Below are positions 9,145 to 34,008 of a DNA stretch of 64,000 bases, one piece after another. Below the pieces are notes generated by a model that did no database searches, had not been told where the DNA came from, and saw nothing but the letters and a program-made list of their open reading frames with translations. The stretch is from an uncultured Fibrobacter sp. (GTDB lineage: Bacteria; Fibrobacterota; Fibrobacteria; Fibrobacterales; Fibrobacteraceae). The translations under genes were made by a program, and so were the position numbers. Numbering within the stretch: position 1 is the first letter of the stretch; each line of letters begins with the position of its first letter. The DNA is taken from the NCBI RefSeq assembly GCF_947166265.1, contig NZ_CAMVDO010000018.1, positions 1,093-65,092 on the forward strand. Reading direction: 5' to 3'.

Positions 9145-9851
9145 TAGGCATCTCCCATCGACAATTCAACCTGGTCCGGATTTTCTTCGGGCTGCACCGG
9201 TTCTTCGGGGCTAACCGATTCGGGTTTCGCATACTGCGGCACCAAGGCGCCCGCTTCCAAAAGTTCACTGAACTCGCGGAGTCTCGGCAAGTCTTCGGGA
9301 ATGCGGTTGATGCCGAAATACTTCATGAATTCCTGCGTCGTCACGTAGGTATAGGGGTTTCCGACCGTATCGGCACGGGAACCGAGAGCAATGAAGCCCT
9401 TGTCGAGCAAGTTACGAATCGGGCCATCCACCGACGACACGCCACGCACCTGTTCAATCGCCGCCTTGGTAATCGGCTGCTGGTAAGCGATGACCGCCAA
9501 GGTTTCAAGCGCAGCCTGGCTGAGCCTGCGGGCATTTGCCTCGGGGAACAGCTTGCGCACCCACGGGTAGTACTTGGCGCGGGTCCTAAAGCGGTAACCG
9601 CCCGCCTGTTCCACAATTTCGAACGGGGAATTAATCTTGTTCAGCGAATCGTTCGCCGCAATCAAAGCATCGGACACCAAGCGCGCATCCAAAAAGTCGC
9701 CCAGAATTTCACGCAGTTTCTTGAGCGTCACAATATCAGGAGACGCAAACACGAGCGCCTGGATAATGCGGGCCAAATCCTCTTGGCTCTCGACTTTCGG
9801 GAGTTCCGCCGATTCTTCGGCCAAATCGTCCAAATTCTGATTTTCTTCCAT
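9144..9851 (-). CDS. scpB: SMC-Scp complex subunit ScpB
   Basis: ALVFAS, AGGYRFRT, LSQAALETLAVIAYQQPITKAAIEQVRGV, Y.TTQEFMKYFG; TAATG coupling to mutS. Confidence 0.95.
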   Translation of the reverse strand: MEENQNLDDLAEESAELPKVESQEDLARIIQALVFASPDIVTLKKLREILGDFLDARLVSDALIAANDSLNKINSPFEIVEQAGGYRFRTRAKYYPWVRKLFPEANARRLSQAALETLAVIAYQQPITKAAIEQVRGVSSVDGPIRNLLDKGFIALGSRADTVGNPYTYVTTQEFMKYFGINRIPEDLPRLREFSELLEAGALVPQYAKPESVSPEEPVQPEENPDQVELSMGDA

Positions 9852-9936
9852 ACACCCGCAAAATAAAAAATTTCACAGAGGCAAGTAAAGCGCCCACCAA
9901 GGATTTCACTCTTTTAGGCGAGTCCGGGTCAAAATT

Positions 9937-12114
9937 CTATTCATCCTGAACACATCTAATTCCATAAGCGGCAAAATTTCTGCTTGTAGCAGTCGGGAAT
10001 TCGTACAGGAATCGGCTTGCGTTATAATTAAAATTCAAATACCCCGCTTTATATTTCGAGTCCGATGCATAAGCTAGGTACGCAACTCCATTTATATAGT
10101 AATCTTGCGATAGATACCCCGAAGGAAGAATCGAAAAACCATAGAAATTCAATCCATTTTCATCTGCTTTCCAACCATTTTCAGAACGTAACATAAGCCC
10201 ATTAGGACAAAATATAGCCTGCTGAGGGATTTCATCTTTTATATACGAAAAGAGCTGATTCCATTCAGTATAGTTCGGGATATGCCAACCGGAGGGACAT
10301 AAACGGACACTACTATCCATAATAGTCTCGTATGCATAAAGGCGACCATACTTTGCACAGCTATCAGGTTCATTTTGAAGACAAAAACTCAATGAATCTT
10401 TTTCTTCATTTGATTCTAGATAAGCGTAATCTAAATTTTCGGCCATCCAATTTTGGTCACCGATTTTGGTCGTATTATACTTCTTTCCGTCCCTAGCATC
10501 AATCAATGTTCCATATTCATAATCAGAATGCAAATTTTTTATACAGCGAACAGGAATCTGCGTTGCATAGTCAACAAATCCCTCATACTCAGAATCGGCA
10601 TCTTCTAACTCAAATATATACTGTGCATCTCTGCTGCCTAAAATATCCCTAGCCCAGAACCAACCCGAAGTTCCGTTTCCATTTAACTCGCCACTACGAA
10701 ATGTTCCTGAAATATATCCAGAAGGAGTTCCCGAAAATCCAAAGACATCCCTACCCGGTTCAATATCAGGATGGTAATTCCATCCGTCTGTTGATTTTAG
10801 CGCAGATGCAATCGAGATATTTTCCCTATTGCGATCCACATAGGCTACCAGCGAATCCCATTCGCTCATATAGGGCAGATGCCATCCCTGGGGGCACACA
10901 GCACGGGCTTGATTCGCTGTATAATATTTTCCTCCGTACGAAGTACTGGATGCATTCAAAGTGTCGTAATCAAGATTTTCAGCCATCCATTCACGAGGTC
11001 CAATCTTAACGGTTTTATATTCTTTTCCGTCTCGTTCATCCTTCAAAGTTCCATACGAACCTTCATACCCCTTTATAACAATTGTATCGGCGGGATTCTT
11101 TTCAGAAACATCCTTAATACAACGGACTGAATAACTCTCATCAACGAACCACGATTGAATGCCACTCCACATATCAACATCTGACAAGCGGTATGTATCA
11201 CACTGTTGAACCCAATGATCTCGTTTCGGATGGAGAGATGATGTCCAAAGCCGAGTTTCATCACCATTATCTTTGTATGCAGACTCTTTATAAAAACCTG
11301 CAGGTAATGCCGAAAAGCCAAACCGGTCTAATTGAGATTCTTCCCATTCGTATTGAGATTTCAGACCATTATGTCCCCCCGCGTTTTCGCTTAAAATTTC
11401 GTATTCACCCGACGAAGGTAAATGCCAACCGGCAGGACATGCTCCTTTTGCATTTTCATAAATATATAGGGCACCATATTTTTCGCAATTCGTTTCCAAC
11501 TTATCATAGCAGTGAGATTTCACAACCGAATCGCTAAAATTCATATTTTGCGCCATCCAGGTCTGAGTTCGTTCCCCGACACCAATGACAATTGTTTTGT
11601 AGACTTTTCCATCCCTTTCATCCAAAAATTCGCCATATTTGCCAGATTTTAACAAATCCTGATTAAGGAATTCCGTTGTGACACATTTGTATTTTGAACA
11701 GTCGTAAGTCCCCGAAGAAACGATTTTTACATCAACGGTATCGTGATTTGAGGCTGCCCCGCCGGTAGCGCTACTCGACAAACCTTCCTTGTCGGCAGTC
11801 TTGGAGTCGCTGGACCCGTCGGGATTCTTGCTGCTTGACGACTTTGTAGAACTCGGCTTTGTCTGGTCGTAGGACTTGAACCACTTTTCGCCGTCGCATT
11901 CGTAGTTCTCTTCGAGTTCGGTCACATAGACCTTCTCGCCGATGACATCCATGCTGCACTCGTATGTTTCGAGTTCCGCCTTGTCAGCCACTTCGGCGGG
12001 GAGTCCCTTTGCGCTCGGCGAAGACGACCCGTCGTCCCCGCAACCGATAAACGCAGAACCGAGCATCCCCGCAAGGGCGCAGACAGTAAACTTTTTAGAG
12101 AATGGATTTTTCAT
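9937..12114 (-). CDS. FISUMP (Fib_succ_major) lipoprotein, three FISUMP domains
   Basis: Start moved to MKNPF; lipobox AFIGC; three DxRDGxxYxTxxIG..WMAxN(L/M)...CPxGWH(L/I)P...(S/G)(V/I)RC units. Confidence 0.9.
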   Translation of the reverse strand: MKNPFSKKFTVCALAGMLGSAFIGCGDDGSSSPSAKGLPAEVADKAELETYECSMDVIGEKVYVTELEENYECDGEKWFKSYDQTKPSSTKSSSSKNPDGSSDSKTADKEGLSSSATGGAASNHDTVDVKIVSSGTYDCSKYKCVTTEFLNQDLLKSGKYGEFLDERDGKVYKTIVIGVGERTQTWMAQNMNFSDSVVKSHCYDKLETNCEKYGALYIYENAKGACPAGWHLPSSGEYEILSENAGGHNGLKSQYEWEESQLDRFGFSALPAGFYKESAYKDNGDETRLWTSSLHPKRDHWVQQCDTYRLSDVDMWSGIQSWFVDESYSVRCIKDVSEKNPADTIVIKGYEGSYGTLKDERDGKEYKTVKIGPREWMAENLDYDTLNASSTSYGGKYYTANQARAVCPQGWHLPYMSEWDSLVAYVDRNRENISIASALKSTDGWNYHPDIEPGRDVFGFSGTPSGYISGTFRSGELNGNGTSGWFWARDILGSRDAQYIFELEDADSEYEGFVDYATQIPVRCIKNLHSDYEYGTLIDARDGKKYNTTKIGDQNWMAENLDYAYLESNEEKDSLSFCLQNEPDSCAKYGRLYAYETIMDSSVRLCPSGWHIPNYTEWNQLFSYIKDEIPQQAIFCPNGLMLRSENGWKADENGLNFYGFSILPSGYLSQDYYINGVAYLAYASDSKYKAGYLNFNYNASRFLYEFPTATSRNFAAYGIRCVQDE

Positions 12115-12230
12115 AGCGAAACCCGTTGTTATCTTTTCCGCCCTAAAAATAACAAAGCACCCCCGTGCATCGCAAGCCTTCAGCGCACGGAAAAACAACT
12201 TTTTTCAAGATTTTCTATCAGAAATTTTCT

Positions 12231-12253
12231 ATATGACTCAACCTGAGACATAT
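12231..12253. promoter_or_regulatory. 23-bp palindrome, copy 1 (ATATGACTCA-ACC-TGAGACATAT)
   Basis: Inverted repeat 117 bp upstream of the ATG at 12114; 5 copies in the window. Confidence 0.75.
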
Positions 12254-12292
12254 AGGAGATTTTTGATAGGATGTCAACGTCGTCAACTATCC

Positions 12293-13717
12293 CTATGGCC
12301 GGTCAACGAACAGTTCGTCTAGGCAGACCGTAACGGGAATGGCCGAAGCGTATGAATTGTCCTTTAGCCCAAAGGTCGTTATAAGCGTCGGCATCACGGT
12401 TCGTCGTTTGGCAACCAGTTCCTTGAACATCCCGACCCTGTTCCTAACCTTCAAATCTTCCCCCTTTTGTAAGGAGTATTCGTGGTCGCAGTATTTGATT
12501 TCGCAAACATTGAACACCCTGTCGGCGCGTTCGATAATCAAATCGACCTGCACCCCGCTCCCATCTTCCTGATGCCGCCAGCAATAATATTCCGTCGCGA
12601 TTTTATCTATTCCAAGAGCAACCTTGACCTGTTCAATGTGTGAATAGCAAACCCGCTCAAAGGCAAGCCCCATCCAGTTATTTACGGGAGGCGTATTCAG
12701 GTGGTGGCTCCAGAAATGGGGGTCGGTCGTCCGGCCGACGAACTGGTTTTGAAACATCACGAAAAAATCCACCAGTTGGTAGATGCCGCCGTTTTTCTTT
12801 ATCTTGTCCCCCCGTGTCCGGTAATAACGCACGAAATCGCATTGAACCAGGTCGTCAAGAATTTTGCTCAAGTGCCCGTTATTCTGAACGCCCAACTCAT
12901 TTGCAATCTCTTCGCGGGTCAGTCCCGATTTCTTTTTGCAAAGGGCGTTTATAATGGAAACATGCCCTTCGGGATTTCTAAAGAGAGAACTGAAAAGGCG
13001 CTTGAATTCGTTCCGCAATTTAGCATCTGGCGAAAAAAACAGCCTATCAATGCCCTGCGCACAACTTTCGCGGGCTTGCAGTAAATCCAGATAGTAAGGG
13101 ATGCCGCCCAACGCCATGTAGATTTGCAAAATGGAAAGCCTGTCCCACAGGATTCCCTTGGCTTTGAGATATTTTTCCGTCTCGGACAAGGTGAACGGAC
13201 GGATGTGGAATTCATGCGTAATGCGATTGTGCAAGCCCCCATGCGAGTCGATAAGGTTCCTTATCATCCATGTCGTGGCGCTGCCGCAGACAATCAGCAA
13301 GACTTCGGGATGGACGGAACACCAGTTGTTCCAAAAATGCCCCAACGCTTTTATGAAGCCAGATTTGTGCGTGTCAAAACAAGGGAGTTCATCGATAAAG
13401 ATAATGCTGCGCTTTCCCTTTTTGAGTTTAAAATTCAAAAGTTCCTGAAGCCTAGAAAACGCATCAAGCCACGTGGATGGCATAGACCCCTGATAGCCGA
13501 TCTCGCGCAAGGCGAGCACAAAAGCGGCCATCTGCTCGTGCAAAGAACCTTCCAGAATTCCTGTCACCTTGAAAGAAAATTCATTGCCGTATTTTTGGTC
13601 TATCAGATACGTCTTGCCGACCCTACGTCGGCCGTACAGGGCGATGAACTCCGGCTTGCCAGACCCGTAGATATCGTTCAGTTCCTTGATTTCCTTGTTT
13701 CTACCAATGATATCCAT
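12293..13717 (-). CDS. AAA/P-loop ATPase with wHTH and C-terminal PD-(D/E)xK-like domain (archaeal-ATPase/DUF234-like)
   Basis: IIGRNKE, Walker A YGRRRVGKT, Walker B IFIDELP, C-terminal QVDLIIER...CEIKY; start may be 13717 or 13732. Confidence 0.85.
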   Translation of the reverse strand: MDIIGRNKEIKELNDIYGSGKPEFIALYGRRRVGKTYLIDQKYGNEFSFKVTGILEGSLHEQMAAFVLALREIGYQGSMPSTWLDAFSRLQELLNFKLKKGKRSIIFIDELPCFDTHKSGFIKALGHFWNNWCSVHPEVLLIVCGSATTWMIRNLIDSHGGLHNRITHEFHIRPFTLSETEKYLKAKGILWDRLSILQIYMALGGIPYYLDLLQARESCAQGIDRLFFSPDAKLRNEFKRLFSSLFRNPEGHVSIINALCKKKSGLTREEIANELGVQNNGHLSKILDDLVQCDFVRYYRTRGDKIKKNGGIYQLVDFFVMFQNQFVGRTTDPHFWSHHLNTPPVNNWMGLAFERVCYSHIEQVKVALGIDKIATEYYCWRHQEDGSGVQVDLIIERADRVFNVCEIKYCDHEYSLQKGEDLKVRNRVGMFKELVAKRRTVMPTLITTFGLKDNSYASAIPVTVCLDELFVDRP

Positions 13718-13739
13718 ACCGTTAAAATACATTATTACC

Positions 13740-13826
13740 GGGCTAAAGTCAACACAAAATCCAACTTTCAGCCCACAAATAGCACATTATCGGGCTAAAG
13801 TTCACAAAAACCAACAAGTTTAGCCC
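13740..13826. promoter_or_regulatory. Two tandem 35-bp imperfect palindromes (GGGCTAAAG...TTYAGCCC), 52-bp period
   Basis: 13740-13774 and 13792-13826, directly upstream of the ATPase. Confidence 0.6.
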
Positions 13827-13832
13827 ACTATT

Positions 13833-14034
13833 GGGCGTTCCCCGGCCCGGTCCCTGAGCCTGCCGAAGGGGGGCCGGGTCGGGTGCTGCTCGCCGAGCCC
13901 GCTCGGCTCATCGAGCCTTGCCGCTCTACAGGGCCCACGGCAAGTCTCGCCACCGCACGGCGGTGCGACGCCCTCCCCTAAAGGGGACCATAGCCACTAA
14001 GCAGTAAAACTGCAAGTGGCTGGAGGCCTAACGC
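13833..14034. repeat. Composite palindromic element, copy A (GGGCGTTCCCC...GGGTCGGG...CCTAACGC)
   Basis: Same ends as the elements at 53212-53347 and 58515-58662; contains a nested CCCTGAGCCTGCCGAAGGG hairpin. Confidence 0.65.
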
Positions 14035-14042
14035 GATTCTAG

Positions 14043-14077
14043 TGTGAAATGTGAAGTGTGGGGTGTGGAATGTGAAA
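14043..14077. repeat. Heptamer repeat TGTGRRR x5
   Basis: tgtgaaa tgtgaag tgtgggg tgtggaa tgtgaaa; 3 related units at 22317-22337. Confidence 0.8.
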
Positions 14078-14096
14078 TTGAAAATCCGCCGGCGGG

Positions 14097-15749
14097 TTAA
14101 TCGGAGTCCTTGATGCAGCGGACGGAGTAGGCGGCACTCGTGTTAAGCCTTTCCATGCCCATTCCATCGGATCCATAATACAAATACTCAGGATGGGTAA
14201 AACTCAAACCGTCAGTTGAACCCGCGGTAGTATGGAAATAAGCAAAATGTCCGGCAGCGGTGAAATTGCCGGAGCTGGTCCTGTAACCAGCAGGAATCCC
14301 TGAAAAACCGAAGGTGTCGGTGCCGATATATTCATTACTATAATATTCCCATCCTATCTGCGACTTGAGAGCCTTGCCTGCCGTTTTTTCGCCCGCTGCA
14401 ATATACAAGATATAGAATTCATCATCATCACCTGCATATCTAGGCAAGTGCCAGCCTGAAGGACAAATGCCCCGCACTTTTTTAGTAGGCACGCCATCAC
14501 CACAATTCACACCATTGCCATTATCACAGAGTGCAACGTAATCTATTGCCGCCGCCCAGGTGTAAAGGCGACCCGCCACGTCGCAGTTCTCGGTTTTATT
14601 GTCGTAGCACCAACTGCGTTCCAACAGACTCGGTGTCTTGACGCTGTCAGCGTAGTTCAGGTTCTCCGCCATCCATATCTGGTCACCTATCTGCACCGTC
14701 CTGTAAACCTTGCCGTCGCGTTCATCGGTCATGGAGCCGTAAGTAATATCCGGATTAAAGTAGGCTTCCTTTGGCACATCCCAGTTCCAACTCATTAGAG
14801 AGACCCAACCATTTGCCGTGCAATAATACTTGTTAGTTTCGGTCACAACGCCATTTGTTCTCGTCCCCACTTCTGCGTTGGTGCACGTTTTGCCATAAGT
14901 ATCCATGTCAATTTCCTTGGCCTTTTCCCACGAACCATTTTTACAGACAACATAGGACGAAGAATCCTTCTTTCCGATAAATCCTTCCCTACTCGCATTG
15001 CATTCTGGCAACGCCTTTACCGTATCTTTTACGCAACTCTTTACTTTGTTGTCGTTCCCGCCGCCGTTCTTGCAGGTGGACTTTGCAGCGTTGAAGGCGT
15101 ATTCCTGACTGATTTCATTGGTCATGTCGCTATAGACTTTCAGCGTGTCGATGTCTTCGACCCCCTTGTAATCGATCGTCTTGACCATAAGCTGCGTGCC
15201 TTCCACGAAATAGATGTATTCCATGTCCCTGTCAAAGCCATCCTTGCGCACAAAGTGCCATGTGCTGATGTCGGTCTTGACCATGGCGTCACAGACTCCC
15301 ACCTCGGTGCAGGTCTCGTTCACGGTGATTTCGGGTTCAAGGATTTCGGTCGGCCGCGAACTGCTGGACTTGGCGGAACTGCTCGACGTAGCCTCGCCCT
15401 TGTCGTCGTCCGAAGAACCTTCCTTGTCGGCAGCCTTGGAGTCGCTGGAGTCGTCGGACTTCTTGCTGCTCGATGACTCTGTCGAACTCGGCTTTGTCTG
15501 GTCGTAGGACTTGAACCACTTTTCGCCGTCGCATTCGTAGTTCTCTTCGAGTTCGGTCACATAGACCTTCTCGCCGATGACATCCATGCTGCACTCGTAT
15601 GTTTCGAGTTCCGCCTTGTCAGCCACTTCGGCGGGGAGTCCCTTTGCGCTCGGCGAAGACGACCCGTCGTCCCCGCAACCGATAAACGCAGAACCGAGCA
15701 TCCCCGCAAGGGCGCAGACAGTAAACTTTTTAGAGAATGGATTTTTCAT
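14097..15749 (-). CDS. FISUMP lipoprotein
   Basis: First 88 codons identical to the gene at 9937-12114; single C-terminal FISUMP domain ending SVRCIKDSD. Confidence 0.9.
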   Translation of the reverse strand: MKNPFSKKFTVCALAGMLGSAFIGCGDDGSSSPSAKGLPAEVADKAELETYECSMDVIGEKVYVTELEENYECDGEKWFKSYDQTKPSSTESSSSKKSDDSSDSKAADKEGSSDDDKGEATSSSSAKSSSSRPTEILEPEITVNETCTEVGVCDAMVKTDISTWHFVRKDGFDRDMEYIYFVEGTQLMVKTIDYKGVEDIDTLKVYSDMTNEISQEYAFNAAKSTCKNGGGNDNKVKSCVKDTVKALPECNASREGFIGKKDSSSYVVCKNGSWEKAKEIDMDTYGKTCTNAEVGTRTNGVVTETNKYYCTANGWVSLMSWNWDVPKEAYFNPDITYGSMTDERDGKVYRTVQIGDQIWMAENLNYADSVKTPSLLERSWCYDNKTENCDVAGRLYTWAAAIDYVALCDNGNGVNCGDGVPTKKVRGICPSGWHLPRYAGDDDEFYILYIAAGEKTAGKALKSQIGWEYYSNEYIGTDTFGFSGIPAGYRTSSGNFTAAGHFAYFHTTAGSTDGLSFTHPEYLYYGSDGMGMERLNTSAAYSVRCIKDSD

Positions 15750-15866
15750 AGCGAAACCCGTTGTTATCTTTTCCGCCCTAAAAATAATAAAGCACCCCCA
15801 TGCATTGCAAGCCTTCAATGCGCAGAAAAACGAACTTTTTATGCCGCGTCGGGCCGAAAAATTTCT

Positions 15867-15889
15867 ATATGTCTCACGCCGCGACATAT
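15867..15889. promoter_or_regulatory. 23-bp palindrome, copy 2 (ATATGTCTCA-CGC-CGCGACATAT)
   Basis: 118 bp upstream of the ATG at 15749, between divergent FISUMP genes. Confidence 0.7.
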
Positions 15890-16007
15890 GGAGAATTTTC
15901 TTGGAGCATGTACGGATTTCTTTAAATACAACGCGCGAATCCGCATAAATAAAAGTATATTTAGAAAATAAATCTTATCGAGGCATTTTAAGAGCCAAGG
16001 AAAAACT

Positions 16008-17600: not shown

Positions 17601-17655
17601 GGGCGAACCGCAACCGTGCCGAAACGCCATGTGCGAAACGCATGGTTAGGCGACA

Positions 17656-17680
17656 ATAAAACCCCGCGCAATGCGCGGGG
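17656..17680 (-). terminator. Rho-independent terminator
   Basis: CCCCGCGC-aat-GCGCGGGG with T run on the minus strand, between convergent genes. Confidence 0.8.
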
Positions 17681-17712
17681 CTGTCTTCATATATAAGGAG
17701 TATTGGTTCCGA

Positions 17713-18339: not shown

Positions 18340-18479
18340 GATGTTGTCCTCCTAAAGGAGAGGTTCTAGAAAACGACATTGTTTTCTTGGCGAAACAAGA
18401 TAGGAAAAATTTGTTCGAAAAAGAGATTTTTTTCCTGAAAAAAAATTTTTTTTCGACCCATTCAGCCGTAGAATTTTCT

Positions 18480-18502
18480 ATATGTCACACGTTGCGACAT
18501 AT
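18480..18502. promoter_or_regulatory. 23-bp palindrome, copy 3 (ATATGTCACA-CGT-TGCGACATAT)
   Basis: Between the divergent lipoprotein and RhuM genes. Confidence 0.7.
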
Positions 18503-25120: not shown

Positions 25121-25163
25121 AGGACCTCCCTATACTTTACCAAATATATATAAAAACACATGG

Positions 25164-25178
25164 ATTTGGCAAGTTATA
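25164..25178. repeat. 15-bp inverted repeat, right arm (ATTTGGCAAGTTATA), overlapping a TTGCCA -35-like hexamer
   Basis: Reverse complement of 23666-23680; partial repeat at 25216-25228. Confidence 0.7.
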
Positions 25179-25279
25179 CGGCATAATTCACCAAAAGTAT
25201 CTTTTTTATGATAGATTTGGCAAGATAACGCAGTTTTTAAGGCAGTATTGCCATTCGGATTTGATAATCCGTCGGCGGG

Positions 25280-26542: not shown

Positions 26543-26560
26543 GGGGAAACCTTTTGAGAT

Positions 26561-27721
26561 TTAGTCAGAATCCTTGAGACAACGGACGCTCACTGCAATG
26601 ACCTTACTGCGATTAACCATGAGTGCACTCGGACGTCCATAATACATATCCACGCCATATACATAATAGCCATCAATTTCGGAAGAACTCCAAAAGTCTG
26701 TATAATCGCCAGCATTGACAAAACCATCGGTTGGTCTCGAGCCCACAGGCAACGCCGCAAAACCGTATGCGTCCGTACCGTTACGATTATTAGTCCATCC
26801 CGTCTGAGATTTGAGAGCCTTACCCGCATCATCTGTTTCGCCAACTTCATCAATCAAAACATTCCATTCGGTTGTATCAGGCAGATGCCACCCCATCGGA
26901 CATAAGCCCTGAACTTTTGAAGGTAGAGAGCAGGTCTTTTTTCTGCCACAGTCCACTCCATTGCCGCTGTCGTAAAGTGCGATTGAGTCAATCGCCGCGG
27001 CCCAGGTGTAAAGCCGACCGCCATACGCACATTTTTCTTCATTGTATTCATAGCACCAATTACGTTCCAACAAACTAGGCGTTTTAATACTGTCGGCATA
27101 GTTCAAATTCTGTGCCATCCATATCTGCTCGCCAATCTGAGCAGTCTTATAAACCTGACCATCGCGTTCATCGAGAATTTCGCCATACTTACCCGTTTCA
27201 AGGAATTCCTGGTTCAGGTATTCTGTCGTAACACACTTATACTTCGTGCAATCGTATGTTCCAGACGGCATGACCTTTGCTTCGGCGTAACTTTTCGGAA
27301 CCTCGCCTTTACTAAACGAAGACTCGACCTTGCTCGCAGAACTGTTGCTTGACTTTGTGCCATTTCCAGACGAATTGGAGTTGCTTGACTTGGTCGATGT
27401 TCCTGCCGAAGAAGGGCTATCCTTGCTGTCGCTGGAGTTGACACTCGATGAAGAGAAGTCGCAGTCCATCTTCTCGATGAGAGTCCCGATGACCCAGCCG
27501 TTGTTACCATCGCACACAGCCATGTCATGGTATTCCGTCAGGTAGGTGGCAACGCACTTCTGACTCTTGCCGCAGTCATAGTCCGACAGTTCCATGAATG
27601 TCTCGACGGTGTCAGGAATTCCACCACGGTTTCCGCCACTACCATTATCACCACTTGCCGACGACGAGTCATCACAGGCGGAAAGGACGAAGAATGCCAA
27701 CAGTAAAATAAATTTTTTCAT
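26561..27721 (-). CDS. FISUMP lipoprotein
   Basis: Start MKKFI (or MGVF at 27733); lipobox VLSAC; GGIPDT module; YDCTKYKCVTTE module; FISUMP domain. Confidence 0.9.
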   Translation of the reverse strand: MKKFILLLAFFVLSACDDSSSASGDNGSGGNRGGIPDTVETFMELSDYDCGKSQKCVATYLTEYHDMAVCDGNNGWVIGTLIEKMDCDFSSSSVNSSDSKDSPSSAGTSTKSSNSNSSGNGTKSSNSSASKVESSFSKGEVPKSYAEAKVMPSGTYDCTKYKCVTTEYLNQEFLETGKYGEILDERDGQVYKTAQIGEQIWMAQNLNYADSIKTPSLLERNWCYEYNEEKCAYGGRLYTWAAAIDSIALYDSGNGVDCGRKKTCSLPSKVQGLCPMGWHLPDTTEWNVLIDEVGETDDAGKALKSQTGWTNNRNGTDAYGFAALPVGSRPTDGFVNAGDYTDFWSSSEIDGYYVYGVDMYYGRPSALMVNRSKVIAVSVRCLKDSD

Positions 27722-27753
27722 AAAAACACCCATTACAAAATTTTACCCCTTAG

Positions 27754-29580
27754 TCAATCTTTCAAGCAGCGGAGATTATACGAACTCTGTTGCATAGCAA
27801 CCGCATTAGAATATGAATCCATTGTAGAAGTGCCTTTTTTCAAAGCCAAGTCGAATCTCATATTTATACTGATTCCTGCATCATCCCTTGAAGATGTCAG
27901 AAGAACAGCCTCGGCTCCACTATTAACCCCAGTAGTGAAAGAACTGGTTCCACCCGGCAAAAGAGCAAATCCATATTCATCCTTAAAGCCATTGACCTGC
28001 ATTACTTCGATATCCGTCTTGCCGCTCGATTGAAAATAACCCATGACAAACGATCCTTCCGTATCCCATGCTGGCGGTGCAAACAACATGCTTGAATGCG
28101 ACGCATCCACACCGGTCGTTTCAAATAGTTTTTCGAATTCAGCAAGGCTTGGGATATGCCATCCATCTGGACATTTTCCGCGGACAGGTTCGCCTAAATC
28201 TGTAGAATCAACAACCGCACTTAACCAGGAATAGTAGCAACCATACGTACCATTCGATGTACAACCATATTCCAGATTTTTTGCCATCCATGTCTGGTCG
28301 CCTATGGTTGTAATCGGATATTTTTTCCCGTCCCTTGAGTCTGTCAAGATTTCATAGGCATCCATATTTTGCTTTACCCCGTCGGCCATCCATTCCTTTT
28401 CCGTGCATGTATACAACAATACCCAAAACTTACTGACGGATTGTGTTACGGACTCCCCTTCATTATATGAACCACACCCCTTTTTAAGTTCTATTTCAGA
28501 TGAGGAGGCTTCCCTAAATGCTCCGGATTCGCATACATAAAAAGAACTCGTATCGACAGCACCCGCTAAAACACTTCCGTCAGCGTCGCACTTGAGGCCA
28601 TGGGTGTTCTGCTCCAAGGCTGTCGCCTTTCGCCACATTCCATTATCGCAAATAAAGTAGACCCCATCATTTTTACTGTAAGTATTTCGGGCAGCAACAA
28701 TCTTCTTATCGAAGTTGTCAGAACACTCGCCCAGTTTGTACTCTGCGGCAACAAAGGAGTTTATGTAGGATTCAAAGTCTGGGATTTTTTCAACGCCACC
28801 ACTTTCCTGGATATTCTTTCGCACTTGTACGAAATCCAGGTCCACTGCAAAGTCTGCCGCATCCGCACGATTATCCAAATCGTTCCATTCTCCGTCCTTT
28901 TTAAAGTCAAGAGCGAACATCTGTAGGCGATAATCAAAACCAGTTTCCGATTCATTCAGCATAAGGATCGTCATAGCCAGCAGTGCCGCTCCCCCATCGG
29001 TATCGGAGTAAACGTTCAGTTTGTTCAATTCGTCAAAGTTTCCTTCAAAGCCAAAGGTCTTGAAAAGTTCCTGTTCGGCCTGCTTTTTGGCATCATAGAT
29101 AGACGCTCCATAATCCACCAACTCTTCGATACGGCTATAAACCAAGGATGTTGCAACATTGATATTCGCACTGTTTTTTTGCTTTAGGTTTATGACGCCC
29201 TTTAGCGATGATTCCGATGAAGAAATGGAGCCTGTAACGATATTGTAAAATTTACCAGTTACCTTTGCATAACCATAGTTGGTTTCCGAGGAGACTTCCT
29301 TTATGGAATATGCCCCATCATTGTCGGCAACCTCACCGGTGAATTCCTCAAAGACCATAATGAAGGTTGAATCTAACCCTTGAATGACAATGTCGCTTCC
29401 TTTGGCAAAGGGCCCCACTTGTGCATATCCCGAAACATCTCCAGAAAAGGGTTCGTTGGCATCCTTGGCAGATGTTTCGTAGGGAGAACTAGAGGAATCG
29501 CTTCCGCAGGCGGAAAGGGCGACACCGAGCACCCCCGCAAGGGCGCAGACCGTAAACATTTTCGCGAATGTGTTTTTCAT
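27754..29580 (-). CDS. FISUMP lipoprotein with large N-terminal domain (G.AQ.GPF type)
   Basis: MKNTFAK leader, lipobox ALSAC; N-terminal domain homologous to that of 53380-57324; C-terminal FISUMP ending LRCLKD. Confidence 0.85.
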   Translation of the reverse strand: MKNTFAKMFTVCALAGVLGVALSACGSDSSSSPYETSAKDANEPFSGDVSGYAQVGPFAKGSDIVIQGLDSTFIMVFEEFTGEVADNDGAYSIKEVSSETNYGYAKVTGKFYNIVTGSISSSESSLKGVINLKQKNSANINVATSLVYSRIEELVDYGASIYDAKKQAEQELFKTFGFEGNFDELNKLNVYSDTDGGAALLAMTILMLNESETGFDYRLQMFALDFKKDGEWNDLDNRADAADFAVDLDFVQVRKNIQESGGVEKIPDFESYINSFVAAEYKLGECSDNFDKKIVAARNTYSKNDGVYFICDNGMWRKATALEQNTHGLKCDADGSVLAGAVDTSSFYVCESGAFREASSSEIELKKGCGSYNEGESVTQSVSKFWVLLYTCTEKEWMADGVKQNMDAYEILTDSRDGKKYPITTIGDQTWMAKNLEYGCTSNGTYGCYYSWLSAVVDSTDLGEPVRGKCPDGWHIPSLAEFEKLFETTGVDASHSSMLFAPPAWDTEGSFVMGYFQSSGKTDIEVMQVNGFKDEYGFALLPGGTSSFTTGVNSGAEAVLLTSSRDDAGISINMRFDLALKKGTSTMDSYSNAVAMQQSSYNLRCLKD

Positions 29581-29598
29581 AGGGAAATCTTTTGAAAT

Positions 29599-30747
29599 TT
29601 AGTCAGAGTCCTTGACGCAACGGACGGAGAAGCCGTTGTATCCTTCAAATTCGTACAAGTACGCCCTACTATCGCTCCAGTATAGCATCGCGCTGTAAAC
29701 AAGATTGACATTCCACTTGGTAGAACTCCAAAAGCCAGTCTTGGAGCCGACTTTGTCGAAAGTTCCATAGATATTTTGTCCAGCAGGCAACGCTGAAAAT
29801 CCATAGGCATCACTACGGTTGCCATTGGCACCAAACCAGCCATTCTGCGACTTTAGCTTTGTTCCAGCCGTAGATTTTCCGCCAACCGCATTAAACAAAG
29901 CATTCCATTCAGAACTATCAGGCAAATGCCAACCGCTTGGGCAAATACCTTGAACAGGCAAGGTCGGCGAGCATATCGCACCATGTCCACAGCCAGTTTT
30001 TATGGAATCCATAGCCGCACTCCATTTATAGAAACGCCCAGTCACCTCGCAGTTAGCCGTCACATTGTCGTAGCACCGACTTTTGCCAAGAAGACTCGGA
30101 GTCGCTATACTGTCAGCATAGTTCAGATTCTGAGCCATCCAAACCTGTTCGCCAATCTTTACAGTCTTATAGACCTGACCATCGCGTTCATCAATTATCG
30201 AATCATACTGAATTTCAGGATTGAGATAGGCTTCTTTCGGAACACTCCAATCAAAGTTCCCCGAACTCGATGAAGGAATGATGACACTCGATGAGGATTC
30301 TTCCTTGCTCATGGAACTGCTACTTCGCTTTTCACTTGAAGATGATTTCACCGATGAACTAGACTTATCCTTGTTGCTGCTGGATGAGTCATCGGACTTT
30401 ACAGAACTGGAACTCTTAGAGTCGGACGAGTTCCTTGTTTCTTTCGCGGAACTGCTGGAGTTATCGGTCACTTCGGCTGGTTCGACGGACTTGCTGTCGC
30501 TGGACTTGGCGTCGCTATCCTTATCAGTGACCTTGGCACTGCTGGAGATTGCTTCGTCCTTATCGTTGGAACGAGAATCACTGGATTCTTCGCGGCTATC
30601 GCCGCTCAGAATGACGTTATTGTCATCGTCACCCGCCGATGAAGAGTCGTCGCAAGCGGAAAGGGCGAAGAACGCCGCGAATATAAAGACGGTTAAGAGT
30701 CGGCCCTTCGGCAAGCTCAGGGGCCTTGTAGCAATGACATTTTTCAT
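29599..30747 (-). CDS. FISUMP lipoprotein
   Basis: Start MKNVIA (or MDVF at 30759); lipobox ALSAC; long Ser-rich linker; FISUMP domain. Confidence 0.9.
   Translation of the reverse strand: MKNVIATRPLSLPKGRLLTVFIFAAFFALSACDDSSSAGDDDNNVILSGDSREESSDSRSNDKDEAISSSAKVTDKDSDAKSSDSKSVEPAEVTDNSSSSAKETRNSSDSKSSSSVKSDDSSSSNKDKSSSSVKSSSSEKRSSSSMSKEESSSSVIIPSSSSGNFDWSVPKEAYLNPEIQYDSIIDERDGQVYKTVKIGEQVWMAQNLNYADSIATPSLLGKSRCYDNVTANCEVTGRFYKWSAAMDSIKTGCGHGAICSPTLPVQGICPSGWHLPDSSEWNALFNAVGGKSTAGTKLKSQNGWFGANGNRSDAYGFSALPAGQNIYGTFDKVGSKTGFWSSTKWNVNLVYSAMLYWSDSRAYLYEFEGYNGFSVRCVKDSD
30702..30725. repeat. REP-like hairpin inside signal-peptide coding sequence
   Basis: GGCCCTTCGGCAAGCTCAGGGGCC; matches intergenic CCCTGAGCCTGCCGAAGGG (about 13852) and CACTTCGGCAAGCTCAGTG (57721). 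Confidence 0.7.
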
Positions 30748-30864
30748 AAAAACATCCATTATGATAATTTACCTCCTAAAAATAACAAAGCACCCCCGTG
30801 CATCGCAAGCCTTCAATGCGCAGAAAAACGAACTTTTTATGCCGCGTCGGGCCGAAAAATTTCT

Positions 30865-30887
30865 ATATGTCTCACGTTGCGACATAT
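30865..30887. promoter_or_regulatory. 23-bp palindrome, copy 5 (ATATGTCTCA-CGT-TGCGACATAT)
   Basis: 118 bp upstream of the ATG at 30747; divergent to the TIGR02147 gene. Confidence 0.75.
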
Positions 30888-30992
30888 GGAGAATTTTCTT
30901 GAAGAGTACGTGATAAAAAGCACATCTTATCGAAATTTTCCGTTCCGTAAAAATTGCAAATTCCAACCCAATAAGGTAAATTTGAAAAGCCC

Positions 30993-31811
30993 ATGAAACC
31001 GATATCCGACTACAACGACTACCGCCTTTTTATCAGGGATTACTACGAAGAACGCAAGCTGATGACGGGCCTGTCCTGGCGCGGCTTCAACAAGATGGCG
31101 GGATACGCCAACACGAGATTCTTGAAACTTGTCTGCGACGGAAAGTCAAAGCTGAGCAGTGTCGGCGCAAGTCGCCTGGCAAAACTCATGGGGCTCTCCA
31201 AAATCCAGACGTCCTACTTCTTGGCACTTGTCACCTACTGCAATTCCCCCGTAGAAAAGAAAAGGCAGGCCGCCCTTGAACAGATGCACACCCTGGCAAA
31301 GGACGACAGGGTCAGGGTCGTAGGGGGCGACGGCTACGAATACTTCAAGAACTGGTGGAACCCGGTGCTCCGGGAACTTGCCCCCAGGGTCGCCAATGCC
31401 ACGCCGTCAAAAATCGCGAATATGCTCCACGAAAGCGTGACTCCCGAGAACGTGAAGAAATCCCTGAATTTCCTGGTCCAGGCGGGATTTCTGAAGGAGC
31501 GGCGCAACAGGTATGTCCAATCCGACAAGGCAATCCTTGGCTCGTCCGAGAAGATTCCGCGGGCCATCCGCGGCATGCACAGGCAGATGGCAAGGCTTGC
31601 GGAGAAGGCCGTCGAGGCATTTCCCGTAACGGAGCGCAACTTTTCGGGAATGACGGTCGCCGTAAACCGGGCGGCATACGCGCAGATCGTAAGCGAACTG
31701 GATCTCTGCCGCAAGAAGATAGCCGCAATCGTTTCTGCCACGGAGAGTTGTGACCGAATTTACAGGGTGAACCTACAGTTGTTCCCGTTGACAAAAGAGA
31801 TCGAGAAATGA
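30993..31811 (+). CDS. TIGR02147-family (DUF4423) protein, probable DNA-binding
   Basis: 272 aa; MKPISDYNDYRLFIRDYYEERK...FLKLVCDGK..LS (HTH-like), YFKNWWNPVLREL, ERNFSGMT, YRVNLQLFPLT. Confidence 0.85.
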   Translation: MKPISDYNDYRLFIRDYYEERKLMTGLSWRGFNKMAGYANTRFLKLVCDGKSKLSSVGASRLAKLMGLSKIQTSYFLALVTYCNSPVEKKRQAALEQMHTLAKDDRVRVVGGDGYEYFKNWWNPVLRELAPRVANATPSKIANMLHESVTPENVKKSLNFLVQAGFLKERRNRYVQSDKAILGSSEKIPRAIRGMHRQMARLAEKAVEAFPVTERNFSGMTVAVNRAAYAQIVSELDLCRKKIAAIVSATESCDRIYRVNLQLFPLTKEIEK

Positions 31812-33604
31812 AAACCCTTCTGAAACTTTTATTCATCCCCTACCTTGCGCTGCTATTCCTTGCCGCCTGTGGCGATTCGGAAAAGGAAGTCGCCAACGGC
31901 TATACCGAAGAGCAGAACGCTAGCCTAGATAGCGCCGCCTACGCGATGCTGCAGACGTGGGAGCCCAAAGTCGCCCTGAGACTCGCGAAGGTCGAAGACA
32001 AGAATCTAGGACTTTCCTGGTACGATGTAGAGTTTACGACCGATGCAACGCCCTACTACGAGCATGCTGTCGAAACCGTCGATGAAGCCTGCACCGTGAA
32101 CCTGTATGCCGAACAGAACGGCGTCCGCATGAACTTGACTCGCACCTACAAGAAGAACATCTATACGGAATTTTTGAATCGGGATTCGCTGGACGCTGTA
32201 GTGGAGGATCACCTGGACAATTCTTACGGCGACAGCGCCACAGCAAGTTGCCGGGCGGATTCTACGGCCTTCGCAGACTACTGTGCCGAATACGGCGGGG
32301 CCGTGACGGACCTTTTCAAACTGGACCGTTGCAGCGTACTTCACTTGACATGCGTCATGAAGTTCACGCCGAAAGTTGCCGCCGATGAATACTTGCAGGC
32401 TACGGCCAAGAGAATGAAGGATATCTGCATTGCCGAGTTCTACGCCCCGGGAGAAGACGCTGAAGCCGATTCCACGCTCCTTGTGGACAAGCGGGACGGT
32501 CAAGTGTACAGGACGGTAAAAATCGGCGAACAGGTGTGGATGGCGGAGAACCTGAACTACGCCTATCGGGCTTCTTCGGAAACCATGGATTCCCTCAGTT
32601 ACTGCCCGGAAGGAAATCCCGCCAACTGCGAAAAATACGGACGGCTCTACACCTGGGCCGCGGCGGTGGGCTGCACCGACGACCCCTGCGATATAGGCAA
32701 CAATGTCCAAGGGATATGCCCAGACGGCTGGCGTGTACCGAACCTTGACGACTTCGAAACTCTCGAAGAAGAAATGGGCGGGCGCGACGTCGCCGGGAAA
32801 AAGGCGGCGGCAGAAGAGTTCATGGGAACGGACGATTACGGGTTTACGGCACTGTTCCCGGGTTATTCCGTTCTGCCGCCCGAAACGGAAAGGCAGGAAA
32901 AGTATTACGGCTACGGGGCCTTCTTTATCATGGCTTCGACGAACATGGGAATCCCGCAGCATTGGAGACTCCTTTTCGGCGATACCAGCTCGAATGTCGA
33001 ATTGGCTTCGTCATACGCATTCGAATCGCTCCGCTGCATAAAGGGTGCGGCGACGGAAAATTCAGAGGGGGCCGTGGACCCGGCAGATGTTGTCGCCGGG
33101 ACCTTCACGGACGAGCGCGACGGGCGGACTTACGCCATCACGACGATAGGCTCGCAGACATGGCTTGCCGAGAACCTGAAATACAAGGGGGATTTCACGA
33201 GTTACTGCTACGAAAACGACGACGAGAACTGCGAAAAATACGGCAGGATGTATTCTCCCGACGACGCCAAGACGGCCTGCCCGGAGGGTTGGCGGCTGCC
33301 GTCCGCCCAGGACTTTGTAGACCTGGAGGATAACACCGGGAAGGACATGACTGCTCTCAGGACGACCGAAGGCTGGGAAAGCGGAAACGGAAGCGATCTT
33401 TACGGATTCAGCCTTTACCCGGCAGGACGTTACAGCATCATCGGAAACACCCTGAAATTCGTGCAAATGGGAGTGGCGGCCTACCTATGGACGGACACGG
33501 AAAGCGAATTCGGGACGCTCGTTTTTGACGGACTCAATGTCGGTTACCCGGCAACGTCCATGACATCGGACAACTACCTGAATGTCCGCTGCCTAAAGGA
33601 TTGA
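31808..33604 (+). CDS. FISUMP lipoprotein, two FISUMP domains
   Basis: ATGA overlap with the TIGR02147 gene; lipobox FLAAC; two FISUMP units. Confidence 0.9.
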   Translation: MKTLLKLLFIPYLALLFLAACGDSEKEVANGYTEEQNASLDSAAYAMLQTWEPKVALRLAKVEDKNLGLSWYDVEFTTDATPYYEHAVETVDEACTVNLYAEQNGVRMNLTRTYKKNIYTEFLNRDSLDAVVEDHLDNSYGDSATASCRADSTAFADYCAEYGGAVTDLFKLDRCSVLHLTCVMKFTPKVAADEYLQATAKRMKDICIAEFYAPGEDAEADSTLLVDKRDGQVYRTVKIGEQVWMAENLNYAYRASSETMDSLSYCPEGNPANCEKYGRLYTWAAAVGCTDDPCDIGNNVQGICPDGWRVPNLDDFETLEEEMGGRDVAGKKAAAEEFMGTDDYGFTALFPGYSVLPPETERQEKYYGYGAFFIMASTNMGIPQHWRLLFGDTSSNVELASSYAFESLRCIKGAATENSEGAVDPADVVAGTFTDERDGRTYAITTIGSQTWLAENLKYKGDFTSYCYENDDENCEKYGRMYSPDDAKTACPEGWRLPSAQDFVDLEDNTGKDMTALRTTEGWESGNGSDLYGFSLYPAGRYSIIGNTLKFVQMGVAAYLWTDTESEFGTLVFDGLNVGYPATSMTSDNYLNVRCLKD

Positions 33605-33708
33605 CGAAGCGAGGAAATCATAACATAATTATATACAAAAAGGGCTGCCAAAGTCAATAGGGCACCGAGAAAAAACATTTCATGGGATGCGGCACATTCC
33701 TATTCGGA

Positions 33709-34008
33709 TTACATGTCTCCCATCGACAATTCAACCTGGTCCGGATTTTCTTCGGGCTGCACCGGTTCTTCGGGGCTAACCGATTCGGGTTTCGCATACT
33801 GCGGCACCAAGGCGCCCGCTTCCAAAAGTTCACTGAACTCGCGGAGTCTCGGCAAGTCTTCGGGAATGCGGTTGATGCCGAAATACTTCATGAATTCCTG
33901 CGTCGTCACGTAGGTATAGGGGTTACCCACCGTATCGGCACGGCTACCCAGCGCAATAAAGCCCTTGTCAAGCAAGTTACGAATCGGGCCATCCACCGAC
34001 GACACACC
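33709..34008 (-). pseudogene. scpB: 3' fragment of scpB (second allele)
   Basis: 33716-33924 is identical to 9151-9359; 33925-34008 differs from 9360-9443 only at synonymous sites; no 5' part, no RBS. Confidence 0.93.

What the first reader, a model, noticed from the sequence alone, without database searches (positions are those of the whole stretch)
9151..34008. The FISUMP array is bracketed by two different alleles of the scpB 3' end
Seen: 33716-33924 is 100% identical to 9151-9359 (209 bp). The next 84 bp differ at 9 positions, all synonymous (including Ser TCC/AGC), and the last codons differ (GDA* vs GDM*). The fragment starts abruptly 42 bp after the stop of the 34048 gene. Unusually, the intact copy is downstream (next to mutS) and the truncated copy is upstream, the reverse of a classic integrase att duplication. 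Inference: synonymous-only divergence means both copies were once functional, so the roughly 24-kb cargo probably arrived by additive homologous (single-crossover) integration of DNA from another strain, using scpB as the anchor. The 209-bp identity would be the crossover or conversion tract and would still allow excision or amplification of the array.
Basis: partly seen in the sequence, partly recalled or inferred. Interest (0 to 1): 0.75.

Follow-up and report, generated by a model that had tools for sequence, protein, structure and literature searches.

The report
Leftover scpB fragment at an array edge
The 301-bp scpB piece at the far end of the FISUMP gene array is the decayed remnant of a second, once complete scpB gene, left by integrase-free recombination at a rearrangement hot spot and still exchanging sequence with the intact gene: a clear but fairly ordinary genome scar.

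Summary
Window 9151-9359 equals 33716-33924 (209 bp). The next 85 bp carry 9 differences, all synonymous, and the tails read GDA* versus GDM*.

The fragment is real. Two independent metagenome assemblies (L081, 99.9% identical; L088, 95%) show the same junctions.

It is not an att duplication. Its left edge is a ~460-bp microhomology deletion (TGG[G/T]GTG) within a 34048-gene/leader/scpB layout that survives intact in L011. Its GDM* tail plus 105 bp is the left end of a different insertion found between scpB and mutS in L007-type genomes. That stub joins the array through 5 bp of microhomology (CGCTT). No integrase, transposase or tRNA lies in 9.9-39.5 kb.

Both 85-bp haplotypes occur in full-length scpB genes of other genomes. 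The intact gene's first 492 bp are 99% identical to L012.

The 209-bp identity is a recent gene-conversion tract. L081's relic differs at 4 clustered sites inside it, and L088's relic carries the intact-type haplotype.

Additive, homology-anchored acquisition is plausible, but a plain single crossover is not enough. Deletion between the repeats would leave only the truncated scpB, so excision is probably selected against.

The parts
6532..9144 (-). mutS. Its ATG overlaps the scpB stop (TAATG).
   Evidence: MutS_I-V domains in the orthologous genes of L090-L098.
9144..9851 (-). Intact scpB (235 aa), a mosaic gene.
   Evidence: TIGR00281, E 3e-34. The protein is 100% identical in many Fibrobacter genomes. 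Its first 492 nt differ from L012 at 4 sites, its last 209 nt at 29.
9151..9359 (-). Copy 1 of the 209-bp identical tract (conversion tract) in the intact gene.
   Evidence: Closest alleles elsewhere are L007, L087 and L089, which are the GDM*-tail genomes, plus L094, each 6 differences away.
9360..9444 (-). 85-bp segment of the intact gene carrying the L012-type haplotype (CCCTCTCCA at the 9 variable sites).
9852..9920 (-). scpB leader shared by all genomes that carry an insertion upstream of scpB.
   Evidence: Blast limits and alignment of the upstream regions.
9937..33604 (.). Composite FISUMP array. It holds 11 FISUMP genes, ATPase_2 genes (12293-13732 and 23690-25120), RhuM (18658-20046), a lipoprotein gene (17713-18339) and TIGR02147/DUF4423 (30993-31811). 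No recombinase.
33605..33611 (.). Illegitimate junction. The 7 nt after the FISUMP stop (CGAAGCG, also present in L010 and L100) overlap the E-left sequence by 5 nt (CGCTT on the minus strand).
33612..33708 (-). Stub of the left end of insertion E, which lies between scpB and mutS in L007-type genomes. It includes a promoter-like TTGACT-18-TATAAT (33657 to 33628).
   Evidence: 95.4% identity to L007 10408-10815 over 409 bp; promoter scan.
33709..34009 (-). scpB relic: the last 98 codons plus a stop, with a GDM* tail.
   Evidence: Called as a 95-aa SMC_ScpB gene in L081. The L088 ortholog has a 2-bp deletion.
33716..33924 (-). Copy 2 of the 209-bp identical tract. Sites 33838, 33849, 33862 and 33868 differ in the near-identical strain L081.
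34003..34020 (-). Deletion junction. The first ~11 nt of the scpB leader (TGAAATCCTGG) are fused to scpB nt ~405 through the imperfect microhomology TGG(G/T)GTG.
   Evidence: Comparison with L011, L081 and L088.
34048..38058 (-). 1336-aa secreted repeat protein with a T9SS C-terminal sorting domain. It lies directly upstream of a full scpB in L011.
   Evidence: (98.1% identity to L011).
38288..39436 (+). AAA_14/DUF4143 ATPase, part of the insertion between proB and scpB.
   Evidence: L090 has proB-ATPase-scpB.
39493..40632 (-). proB (glutamate 5-kinase), the ancestral upstream neighbour of scpB.
   Evidence: proB abuts scpB in L003, L005, L006, L008, L013, L014, L091, L092 and L094-L098.

Best explanation
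The fragment is the 3' relic of a second scpB gene that was once complete. That gene sat just downstream of the 34048 gene, behind the same ~70-nt leader that precedes the present scpB. At its 3' end it carried the left junction of another insertion (E), which in L007-type genomes separates scpB from mutS.

An integrase-free recombination event then placed a block next to it. The block comprised the FISUMP array, a leader and the 5' part (at least) of another scpB allele. One end of the block was joined illegitimately through 5 bp of microhomology, 105 bp into E. The other end was joined by homology in the scpB 3' end or in mutS. This resembles homology-facilitated illegitimate recombination, or an equivalent Campbell-type event. 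It produced a chromosome with two scpB copies.

The redundant upstream copy then lost its leader and first ~405 nt through a deletion at a 7-bp imperfect microhomology. Since then the relic and the intact gene, 24.5 kb apart, have repeatedly exchanged sequence by gene conversion. The present 209-bp perfect identity is the latest such tract.

Shown directly: both junctions, their presence in other assemblies, the allele affinities, the patchy differences and the absence of recombinase genes. Inferred: the order of events, the source of the incoming DNA (another strain or the same chromosome) and the direction of each conversion.
For: 1. The relic junctions are real and shared.
- L081 (ENA NODE_3801) is 99.93% identical to window 32102-48059. 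It contains the 34048 gene, the relic, the E stub and the FISUMP gene.
- L088, from another metagenome, is 94.9% identical over window 34908-30623 and has both junctions.

2. The left junction is a deletion. L011 has the 34048 gene (98.1% identity), the same intergenic sequence, the leader, a full scpB and mutS. The window keeps the leader only up to TGAAATCCTGG and then continues at scpB nt ~405.

3. The right side of the relic is contiguous L007-type sequence. The GDM* tail and 105 bp match L007, L086, L087 and L089, which have a full scpB followed by E. In L007 a 27-bp scpB remnant lies before mutS.

4. The array end is joined by microhomology. L010 and L100-L105 share TGACGAAGCG after the orthologous FISUMP stop and then continue differently.

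5. Ancestral and intermediate layouts exist in other genomes.
- proB-scpB-mutS is the majority layout and is also found in distant species.
- proB-ATPase-scpB occurs in L090.
- proB-ATPase-34048-scpB occurs in L011.
- array-scpB-mutS occurs in L010.

6. The allele data support two alleles and recombination.
- The 9 differences are clustered (P = 1.4e-5).
- The two haplotypes match different genomes.
- The intact gene's first 492 nt are 99.2% identical to L012, while flanking mutS is ~95%.

7. Conversion is ongoing.
- L081 differs from the window at only 8 substitutions in 16 kb. Four of them lie within 31 bp inside the tract, and the other four lie in one FISUMP patch.
- L088's relic carries the intact-type haplotype at 8 of 9 sites.

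8. No integrase, transposase or tRNA lies in 9.9-39.5 kb.
Against: - The required intermediate, 34048 gene followed by a full scpB(GDM*) and then E, was not found in any fetched genome.
- The order of events cannot be fixed.
- L012's own last ~190 bp are an outlier (at least 27 differences from every other allele). L012 therefore cannot show what the window's intact gene carried before conversion. A later import of a ~510-bp L012-like patch into the intact gene would give the same pattern without two strains being involved in the original event.
- DNA uptake or natural transformation in Fibrobacter was not examined.
- The contiguity of the 24-kb repeat-rich array in the window could not be checked with reads. 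Exact-protein look-ups for four window genes found nothing.
Confidence: 0.6

Rival explanations
1. This is the first reader's model: Campbell-type single crossover. A circular DNA carrying the array, a leader, a full scpB with the GDM* tail and 105 bp of E was closed by the CGCTT microhomology joint. It integrated by one homologous crossover into the scpB of an L011-like chromosome. A later 460-bp deletion truncated the upstream copy.
For: Both parental layouts exist: L011-type as recipient and L007-type as donor, with array-leader-scpB(GDM*)-E. The product has direct repeats of scpB flanking the insert. The intact copy is a chimera whose breakpoint lies near 9359/9360.
Against: The model still needs the extra deletion and an illegitimate circularisation. 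The relic is uniformly L007-like and shows no internal crossover. A reciprocal crossover does not make the two tracts identical. L081 shows that the perfect identity is recent. No circular form has been observed.
Confidence: 0.2
2. The origin is purely intragenomic. A microhomology-mediated tandem duplication of array-leader-scpB-E stub occurred within one chromosome and was followed by deletions. The 85-bp allelic difference arose later, when an ordinary ~510-bp homologous import from an L012-like strain replaced the 5' part of the intact gene.
For: The L012-like patch is short (9360-9870) and does not extend into mutS or the array. Microhomology junctions are typical of duplications and deletions. 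L012's 3' tract cannot be used to infer direction.
Against: It needs at least four events, including precise loss of E and of a whole array copy. The window's accessory pieces have their best matches in different genomes: the 34048 gene is 98% to L011, RhuM is 98% to L004, and the relic is 95-96% to L007. The core flanks are only ~94%, which points to exchange between lineages.
Confidence: 0.13
3. Site-specific integration. The array is an integrative island and the scpB 3' end is its attachment site, duplicated as attL and attR.
For: There are direct repeats at both ends of a variable region, located at the 3' end of a conserved gene. A 20-bp repeat (GTTGAATTGTCGATGGGnGA) flanks insertion E in L007.
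Against: No integrase, recombinase or transposase was detected among the 13 large ORFs scanned from 9.9-39.5 kb, and there is no tRNA. The truncated copy is on the wrong side. The repeat is 294 bp with allelic differences, not a short core. The fragment's outer edge is a deletion junction inside leader-scpB.
Confidence: 0.03
4. Assembly artefact. The fragment is a chimeric join of two co-occurring strains.
For: All relatives found are metagenome assemblies. A Logan contig (L082) breaks 33 nt into the relic, where a 31-mer becomes shared with the intact copy.
Against: The junctions rest on only 3-7 nt of shared sequence, which is too short for an assembler join. They recur in L081 and in the 5%-diverged L088, which come from different data sets.
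Confidence: 0.03

Closest known systems
Homology-facilitated illegitimate recombination (de Vries & Wackernagel 2002; Prudhomme et al. 2002; Meier & Wackernagel 2003, as cited in PMC5361080)
   Same: Foreign or relocated DNA is fixed by one homologous anchor and one joint at a few bases of microhomology, without any recombinase gene. Here the joint is the 5-bp CGCTT at 33605-33611 and the anchor is scpB/mutS.
   Different: HFIR is defined experimentally in transformable bacteria. Here it is only inferred from the scars. DNA uptake in Fibrobacter was not assessed, and the anchor crossover point cannot be located.
Displaced 3' ends and orphan modules at Rhs, CDI and T6SS effector-immunity loci (Kirchberger et al. 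2017, PMC5361080; Jackson et al. 2009 and Koskiniemi et al. 2014, cited there)
   Same: Additive acquisition next to a conserved gene leaves truncated 3' pieces of that gene as relics at module boundaries. The relics stay recombinogenic with the intact gene.
   Different: In those systems the displaced 3' ends lie downstream of the intact gene, and the variable 3' end is itself the cargo (a toxin tip). Here the conserved gene is a housekeeping condensin subunit, the relic lies upstream, and the cargo is an array of secreted FISUMP lipoproteins.
Flexible genomic islands exchanged by homologous recombination in conserved flanks (López-Pérez et al. 2014, PMC4033161; title and abstract only)
   Same: A variable region lies between conserved core genes (proB and scpB/mutS), with different contents in closely related genomes and no mobility genes.
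   Different: Replacement islands swap their content cleanly. Here an additive event left a duplicated anchor gene and microhomology junctions.
Integrase-mediated islands inserted at the 3' end of a gene (attL/attR duplication)
   Same: There are direct repeats of a gene's 3' end at the two ends of an accessory region.
   Different: No integrase is present. The partial copy is upstream rather than downstream. The repeat is long and allelic. The outer edge is a deletion scar.

Membership tests
Integrase-type integrative island (att duplication) | Tyrosine or serine recombinase gene inside or next to the island | tested here: not met
   Pfam and NCBIfam scans of 13 large ORFs from 9.9-39.5 kb found none. 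Seven FISUMP ORFs were read from their translations only.
Integrase-type integrative island (att duplication) | Intact target gene first, with the partial 3' copy at the distal end of the island | tested here: not met
   The partial copy lies upstream of the intact gene, and the intact gene abuts mutS.
Integrase-type integrative island (att duplication) | Short identical core bounded by unrelated arms | tested here: not met
   The repeat is 294 bp with 9 allelic differences. Its outer edge is a deletion within leader-scpB.
Campbell-type single-crossover integration | Direct repeats of the homologous segment flank the inserted DNA | tested here: met
   9151-9444 and 33716-34009 are in the same orientation, 24,565 bp apart.
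Campbell-type single-crossover integration | The two copies are reciprocal chimeras of donor and recipient alleles | tested here: inconclusive
   The intact copy is a chimera, L012-like and then L007-like. The relic is uniformly L007-like, and its 5' part is deleted.
Campbell-type single-crossover integration | Circular donor molecule | not testable with these tools
   No reads or circular contigs were available.
Homology-facilitated illegitimate recombination | One end joined at 3-10 nt of microhomology to non-homologous recipient DNA | tested here: met
   The CGCTT overlap lies between the E-left sequence (L004, L007) and the array-end sequence (L010, L100) at 33605-33611.
Homology-facilitated illegitimate recombination | The other end joined by homologous recombination in an anchor | tested here: inconclusive
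   scpB and mutS are the only shared sequences on that side, and a breakpoint lies near 9359/9360. A later conversion or import would explain that breakpoint equally well.
Homology-facilitated illegitimate recombination | DNA uptake by the recipient (natural transformation or conjugation) | not tested
   No competence genes were examined. The literature search returned nothing specific to Fibrobacter.
Intrachromosomal gene conversion between dispersed repeats | Differences clustered into tracts rather than spread evenly | tested here: met
   There are 0 differences in 209 bp and 9 in 85 bp, P = 1.4e-5.
Intrachromosomal gene conversion between dispersed repeats | Tracts differ between very close strains and match the partner copy | tested here: met
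   L081 has 4 clustered differences inside the tract, and the window's relic there equals its own intact gene. L088's relic carries the intact-type haplotype.
Pseudogene relic | Lacks the start, leader and 5' coding region, with disabling changes in orthologs | tested here: met
   Only codons ~137-235 remain. L088 has a 2-bp deletion near the 5' edge of its relic.

The most novel reading that the evidence does not exclude
The relic is not merely decaying. Recurrent gene conversion with the intact scpB keeps it recombination-proficient. Because a deletion between the two repeats would remove the leader and 5' two-thirds of the only intact scpB seen here, the arrangement acts as a housekeeping-gene lock. 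The lock protects the 24-kb FISUMP array from deletion while still allowing amplification and cassette exchange. The scpB|mutS boundary, with its 20-bp repeat around insertion E, could also be the target of an unrecognised integrase-free insertion mechanism.
Probability: 0.12. Interest if true: 0.55.

Novelty: new member of a known kind. Interest (0 to 1): 0.3.

Why it matters
FISUMP genes are the largest paralog family in Fibrobacter, and how their arrays grow and move is not documented. This locus gives a readable record of that process:
- It is a hot spot between proB and mutS with at least six layouts among close relatives.
- Growth is additive and uses no mobility genes.
- The junctions rest on microhomology.
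- A dated relic still undergoes gene conversion with a housekeeping gene 24 kb away.

It also carries a practical caution. A truncated copy of a core gene beside an island need not mark an att site. The finding is useful as an example for genome-plasticity studies in rumen bacteria, but it is not a new kind of system.

Tried and rejected
- Exact-protein look-ups for four window genes found nothing: FISUMP 31808-33604, FISUMP 9937-12114, TIGR02147 30993-31811 and MutS. The right-hand side of the array therefore could not be confirmed in a same-strain assembly.
- I first read the L012 comparison as showing that the intact gene's last 209 bp were overwritten by the relic. L012's own tract turned out to be an outlier, at least 27 differences from every allele, so the direction cannot be inferred from it.
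- I looked for the layout 34048-scpB(GDM*)-E. The metagenome scan with the GDM*-tail pattern gave only three L007-type contigs and one window-type contig.
- I looked for the left neighbour of the array in L010. It matches the L100-type flank (Exo_endo_phos...HSP90), not proB or the 34048 gene, so L010 is not a simple precursor.
- No further scpB relic lies at the internal module boundary 18503-18594, so repeated scpB-anchored additions are not supported.
- Site-specific integration and assembly chimera were considered and rejected (see rivals).
Full report
OBSERVATION

The repeat is exactly as described. Window 9151-9359 and 33716-33924 are identical over 209 bp. Homology continues for 85 more bases, to 9444/34009, with 9 mismatches. 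The intact gene, 9144..9851 on the minus strand, is ScpB (TIGR00281). Its TAA overlaps the ATG of mutS (6532..9144). The fragment keeps the last 98 codons. Its translation equals that of the intact gene except for the last residue, GDA* versus GDM*, so all nine differences are synonymous. The chance that all nine would fall in 85 of 294 positions is 1.4e-5. The fragment starts 38 nt after the stop codon of the 34048..38058 gene. Between the copies lie 11 FISUMP genes, two ATPase_2 genes, a RhuM gene, a small lipoprotein gene and a TIGR02147/DUF4423 gene.

IS IT REAL?

A protein look-up with the 1336-aa product of the 34048 gene returned an ENA metagenome contig, L081. It is 99.93% identical to window 32102-48059 and contains the 34048 gene, a 95-aa SMC_ScpB gene call, the 111-bp spacer and the start of the FISUMP gene. 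A metagenome scan with the GDM*-tail pattern returned L088, from a different data set. L088 is 94.9% identical over window 34908-30623 and has both junctions of the fragment. The joins rest on only 3-7 shared bases, so an assembler did not create them. The arrangement is shared by lineages about 5% apart.

WHAT THE NEIGHBOURS LOOK LIKE ELSEWHERE

Eighty Fibrobacter loci carrying scpB, ten contexts of the identical ScpB protein and blastn against the window show that this locus is a hot spot. At least six layouts occur:
- proB-scpB-mutS is the majority layout. It is seen in L003, L005, L006, L008, L091, L092 and L094-L098, in three NCBI genome assemblies (GCA accessions), and in distant species such as L013 and L014. 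It is therefore taken as ancestral.
- L090 has proB, a DUF4143 ATPase and then scpB.
- L011 has proB, the ATPase, the 34048 gene (98.1% identical), scpB and mutS.
- L010 has a FISUMP array, scpB and mutS.
- L004/L099, L093, L002, L009 and L007 have an array upstream and a second insertion (E) between scpB and mutS. E carries a lipoprotein/thioredoxin-like operon, with or without FISUMP and collagen-FISUMP genes.
- The window has all of proB, the ATPase, the 34048 gene, the fragment, the array, scpB and mutS.

Relative to the ancestral layout, window 9852-39490 is extra.

ANATOMY OF THE FRAGMENT

- Left edge. In L011 the 34048 gene is followed by the same intergenic sequence, then a ~57-nt leader (TGAAATCCTGGGGTGG...ATG) and a complete scpB. 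The same leader precedes the window's intact scpB (9852-9908) and every scpB that has an insertion upstream. At the fragment, the leader stops after TGAAATCCTGG and the sequence continues at scpB nt ~405. The overlap TGG(G/T)GTG is an imperfect 7-nt microhomology between the leader and scpB. This is a ~460-bp deletion inside a formerly complete leader-scpB unit.
- Tail. GGGAGACATGTAA plus the next 105 bp matches L007, L086, L087 and L089 at 92-96% identity. In those genomes a full-length scpB ends in GDM* and is followed by E. In L007 a 27-nt native scpB end (GTTGAATTGTCGATGGGAGATGCCTAATG) sits before mutS, so E is flanked by a 20-bp repeat. GDM* is therefore the junction of another insertion and not an scpB allele. 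The stub carries a promoter-like TTGACT-18-TATAAT, which now points into the convergent FISUMP gene.
- Right edge of the stub. Homology to E ends at TTTCCT|CGCTT. From there the window follows the sequence that lies after the orthologous FISUMP stop in L010 and L100-L105 (TGACGAAGCG), which in those genomes continues differently. This is a second illegitimate joint with 5 nt of microhomology.

No integrase, transposase or tRNA occurs in 9.9-39.5 kb.

ALLELES AND CONVERSION

At the nine variable sites the intact gene reads CCCTCTCCA. That is identical to L012 and matches L091, L095 and L088 at 8/9. The fragment reads TTTGGAGGT. It matches L007, L009, L011, L087, L089 and L092 at 7/9, and the two remaining sites are private. 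Each copy therefore has closer relatives in full-length genes of other genomes than in its partner.

The intact gene is a mosaic. Its first 492 nt differ from L012 at 4 sites (99.2% identity), while flanking mutS is ~95% identical. Its last 209 nt differ from L012 at 29 sites and are closest to the GDM*-tail genomes and L094, at 6 differences each. L012's own last ~190 nt are an outlier to every allele, so L012 cannot show which side was overwritten.

Two observations show that conversion between the copies is ongoing. First, L081 differs from the window at only 8 substitutions in 16 kb. Four of them lie within 31 bp inside the 209-bp tract (33838-33868), where the window's relic equals its own intact gene. 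The other four lie in one patch of a FISUMP gene. Second, L088's relic carries the intact-type haplotype in the 85-bp segment, together with three of L081's four tract variants and a 2-bp deletion. The perfect 209-bp identity is therefore a recent conversion tract in this lineage. It is not the footprint of the original integration.

MOST LIKELY HISTORY

A complete scpB once followed the 34048 gene and was itself followed by E. A block consisting of the array, a leader and another scpB allele was joined to it. The far end was joined illegitimately, 105 bp into E. The near end was joined by homology in scpB or mutS. The resulting two-copy chromosome lost the leader and 5' part of the upstream copy. 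The relic and the gene have exchanged patches since.

This resembles homology-facilitated illegitimate recombination. It also resembles the additive displacement proposed for T6SS effector-immunity, Rhs and CDI loci (PMC5361080), but with a housekeeping gene as anchor and the relic upstream.

It still needs the extra deletion, and it does not explain the identity tract. An intragenomic duplication followed by a later L012-like import cannot be excluded.

Accessory pieces have their best matches in different genomes: the 34048 gene is 98% to L011, RhuM is 98% to L004, and scpB 5' is 99% to L012. The core flanks are ~94%. This argues for frequent exchange between lineages.

CONSEQUENCE

Recombination between the two 209-bp repeats would delete the array together with the leader and first 492 nt of the only intact scpB in the window. 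That would leave a truncated gene next to mutS. Excision is therefore probably selected against, whereas unequal exchange could amplify the unit. This is inference, and it rests on general knowledge that ScpB is a core subunit of the SMC-ScpAB complex.

VERDICT

This is a clear example of a recombination scar at a plasticity hot spot. It is a new member of a known kind and of modest interest.

Noticed in passing
L007 10690-16415; also L086, L087, L089, and L002, L004/L099, L009, L093: An insertion (E) lies between scpB and mutS. It carries a lipoprotein / thioredoxin-like (AhpC-TSA) operon, with or without FISUMP and collagen-FISUMP genes, and an AAA-ATPase_like/PDDEXK_9 gene. No integrase was detected. 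In L007 it is flanked by a 20-bp direct repeat of the scpB end (GTTGAATTGTCGATGGGnGA). In L002/L004/L009 the left joint is instead 12 nt into mutS (TAATGGCTGTAACC|TGCGGG).
   Followed up: partly
L012 10500-10705 (corresponds to window ~9150-9330): L012's scpB is 99% identical to the window's over the first 492 nt. Its last ~190 nt differ at 27 or more sites from every other allele fetched, including some amino-acid changes. The same 3' stretch of scpB has therefore been replaced independently in that genome.
   Followed up: partly
window 17597-18502: Inside the array, the FISUMP gene 16008-17600 (+) is followed by a stretch 91% identical to the sequence that flanks the array end in L100-L105 (GGGGCGAACCGCAACC..., plus a 208-aa lipoprotein gene, 17713-18339 on the minus strand). 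The window's array is thus a composite of two units, with a former array-end flank trapped in the middle. No scpB relic lies at that internal boundary.
   Followed up: partly
L083-L085 and L100-L105 versus window 30993-33604: The terminal module TIGR02147/DUF4423 plus the ~599-aa FISUMP gene (88-91% identical) adjoins different core genes in different genomes. In L083 these are LPG_synthase_C/TGT/Ddl. In L100 and L010 they are Exo_endo_phos/TrmB/SMC_N-AAA_23 protein/HSP90. In the window it adjoins the scpB relic. This implies larger rearrangements with breakpoints at array ends.
   Followed up: partly
window 23666-23713 and 25131-25178: The ATPase_2 gene 23690-25120 is bracketed by inverted repeats with perfect 15-nt ends (TATAACTTGCCAAAT). 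Three matches were found in the window against 0.15 expected. The second ATPase_2 gene (12293-13732) has no such repeat.
   Followed up: partly
window 12039-12128 = 15674-15763; 11776-12075 vs 15411-15710; 32437-32470: FISUMP paralogs share identical or near-identical 5' ends: 90 nt at 100% and 300 nt at 96%. The only other cluster of differences between the window and the near-identical L081 is a patch in a FISUMP gene. This suggests gene conversion among array paralogs.
   Followed up: no
L009 and L011 (both from MAG RGIG6529): One MAG holds two contigs, each with a full scpB encoding the identical protein but in different contexts: scpB followed by E, and 34048 gene-scpB-mutS. Either two strains were binned together or this genome has two scpB copies.
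   Followed up: no
window 34048-38058 vs L011; 18595-20121 vs L004/L099: Accessory genes are 98% identical to genomes whose core flanks are only ~92-94% identical to the window. This is a sign of recent spread of accessory genes between lineages.
   Followed up: no
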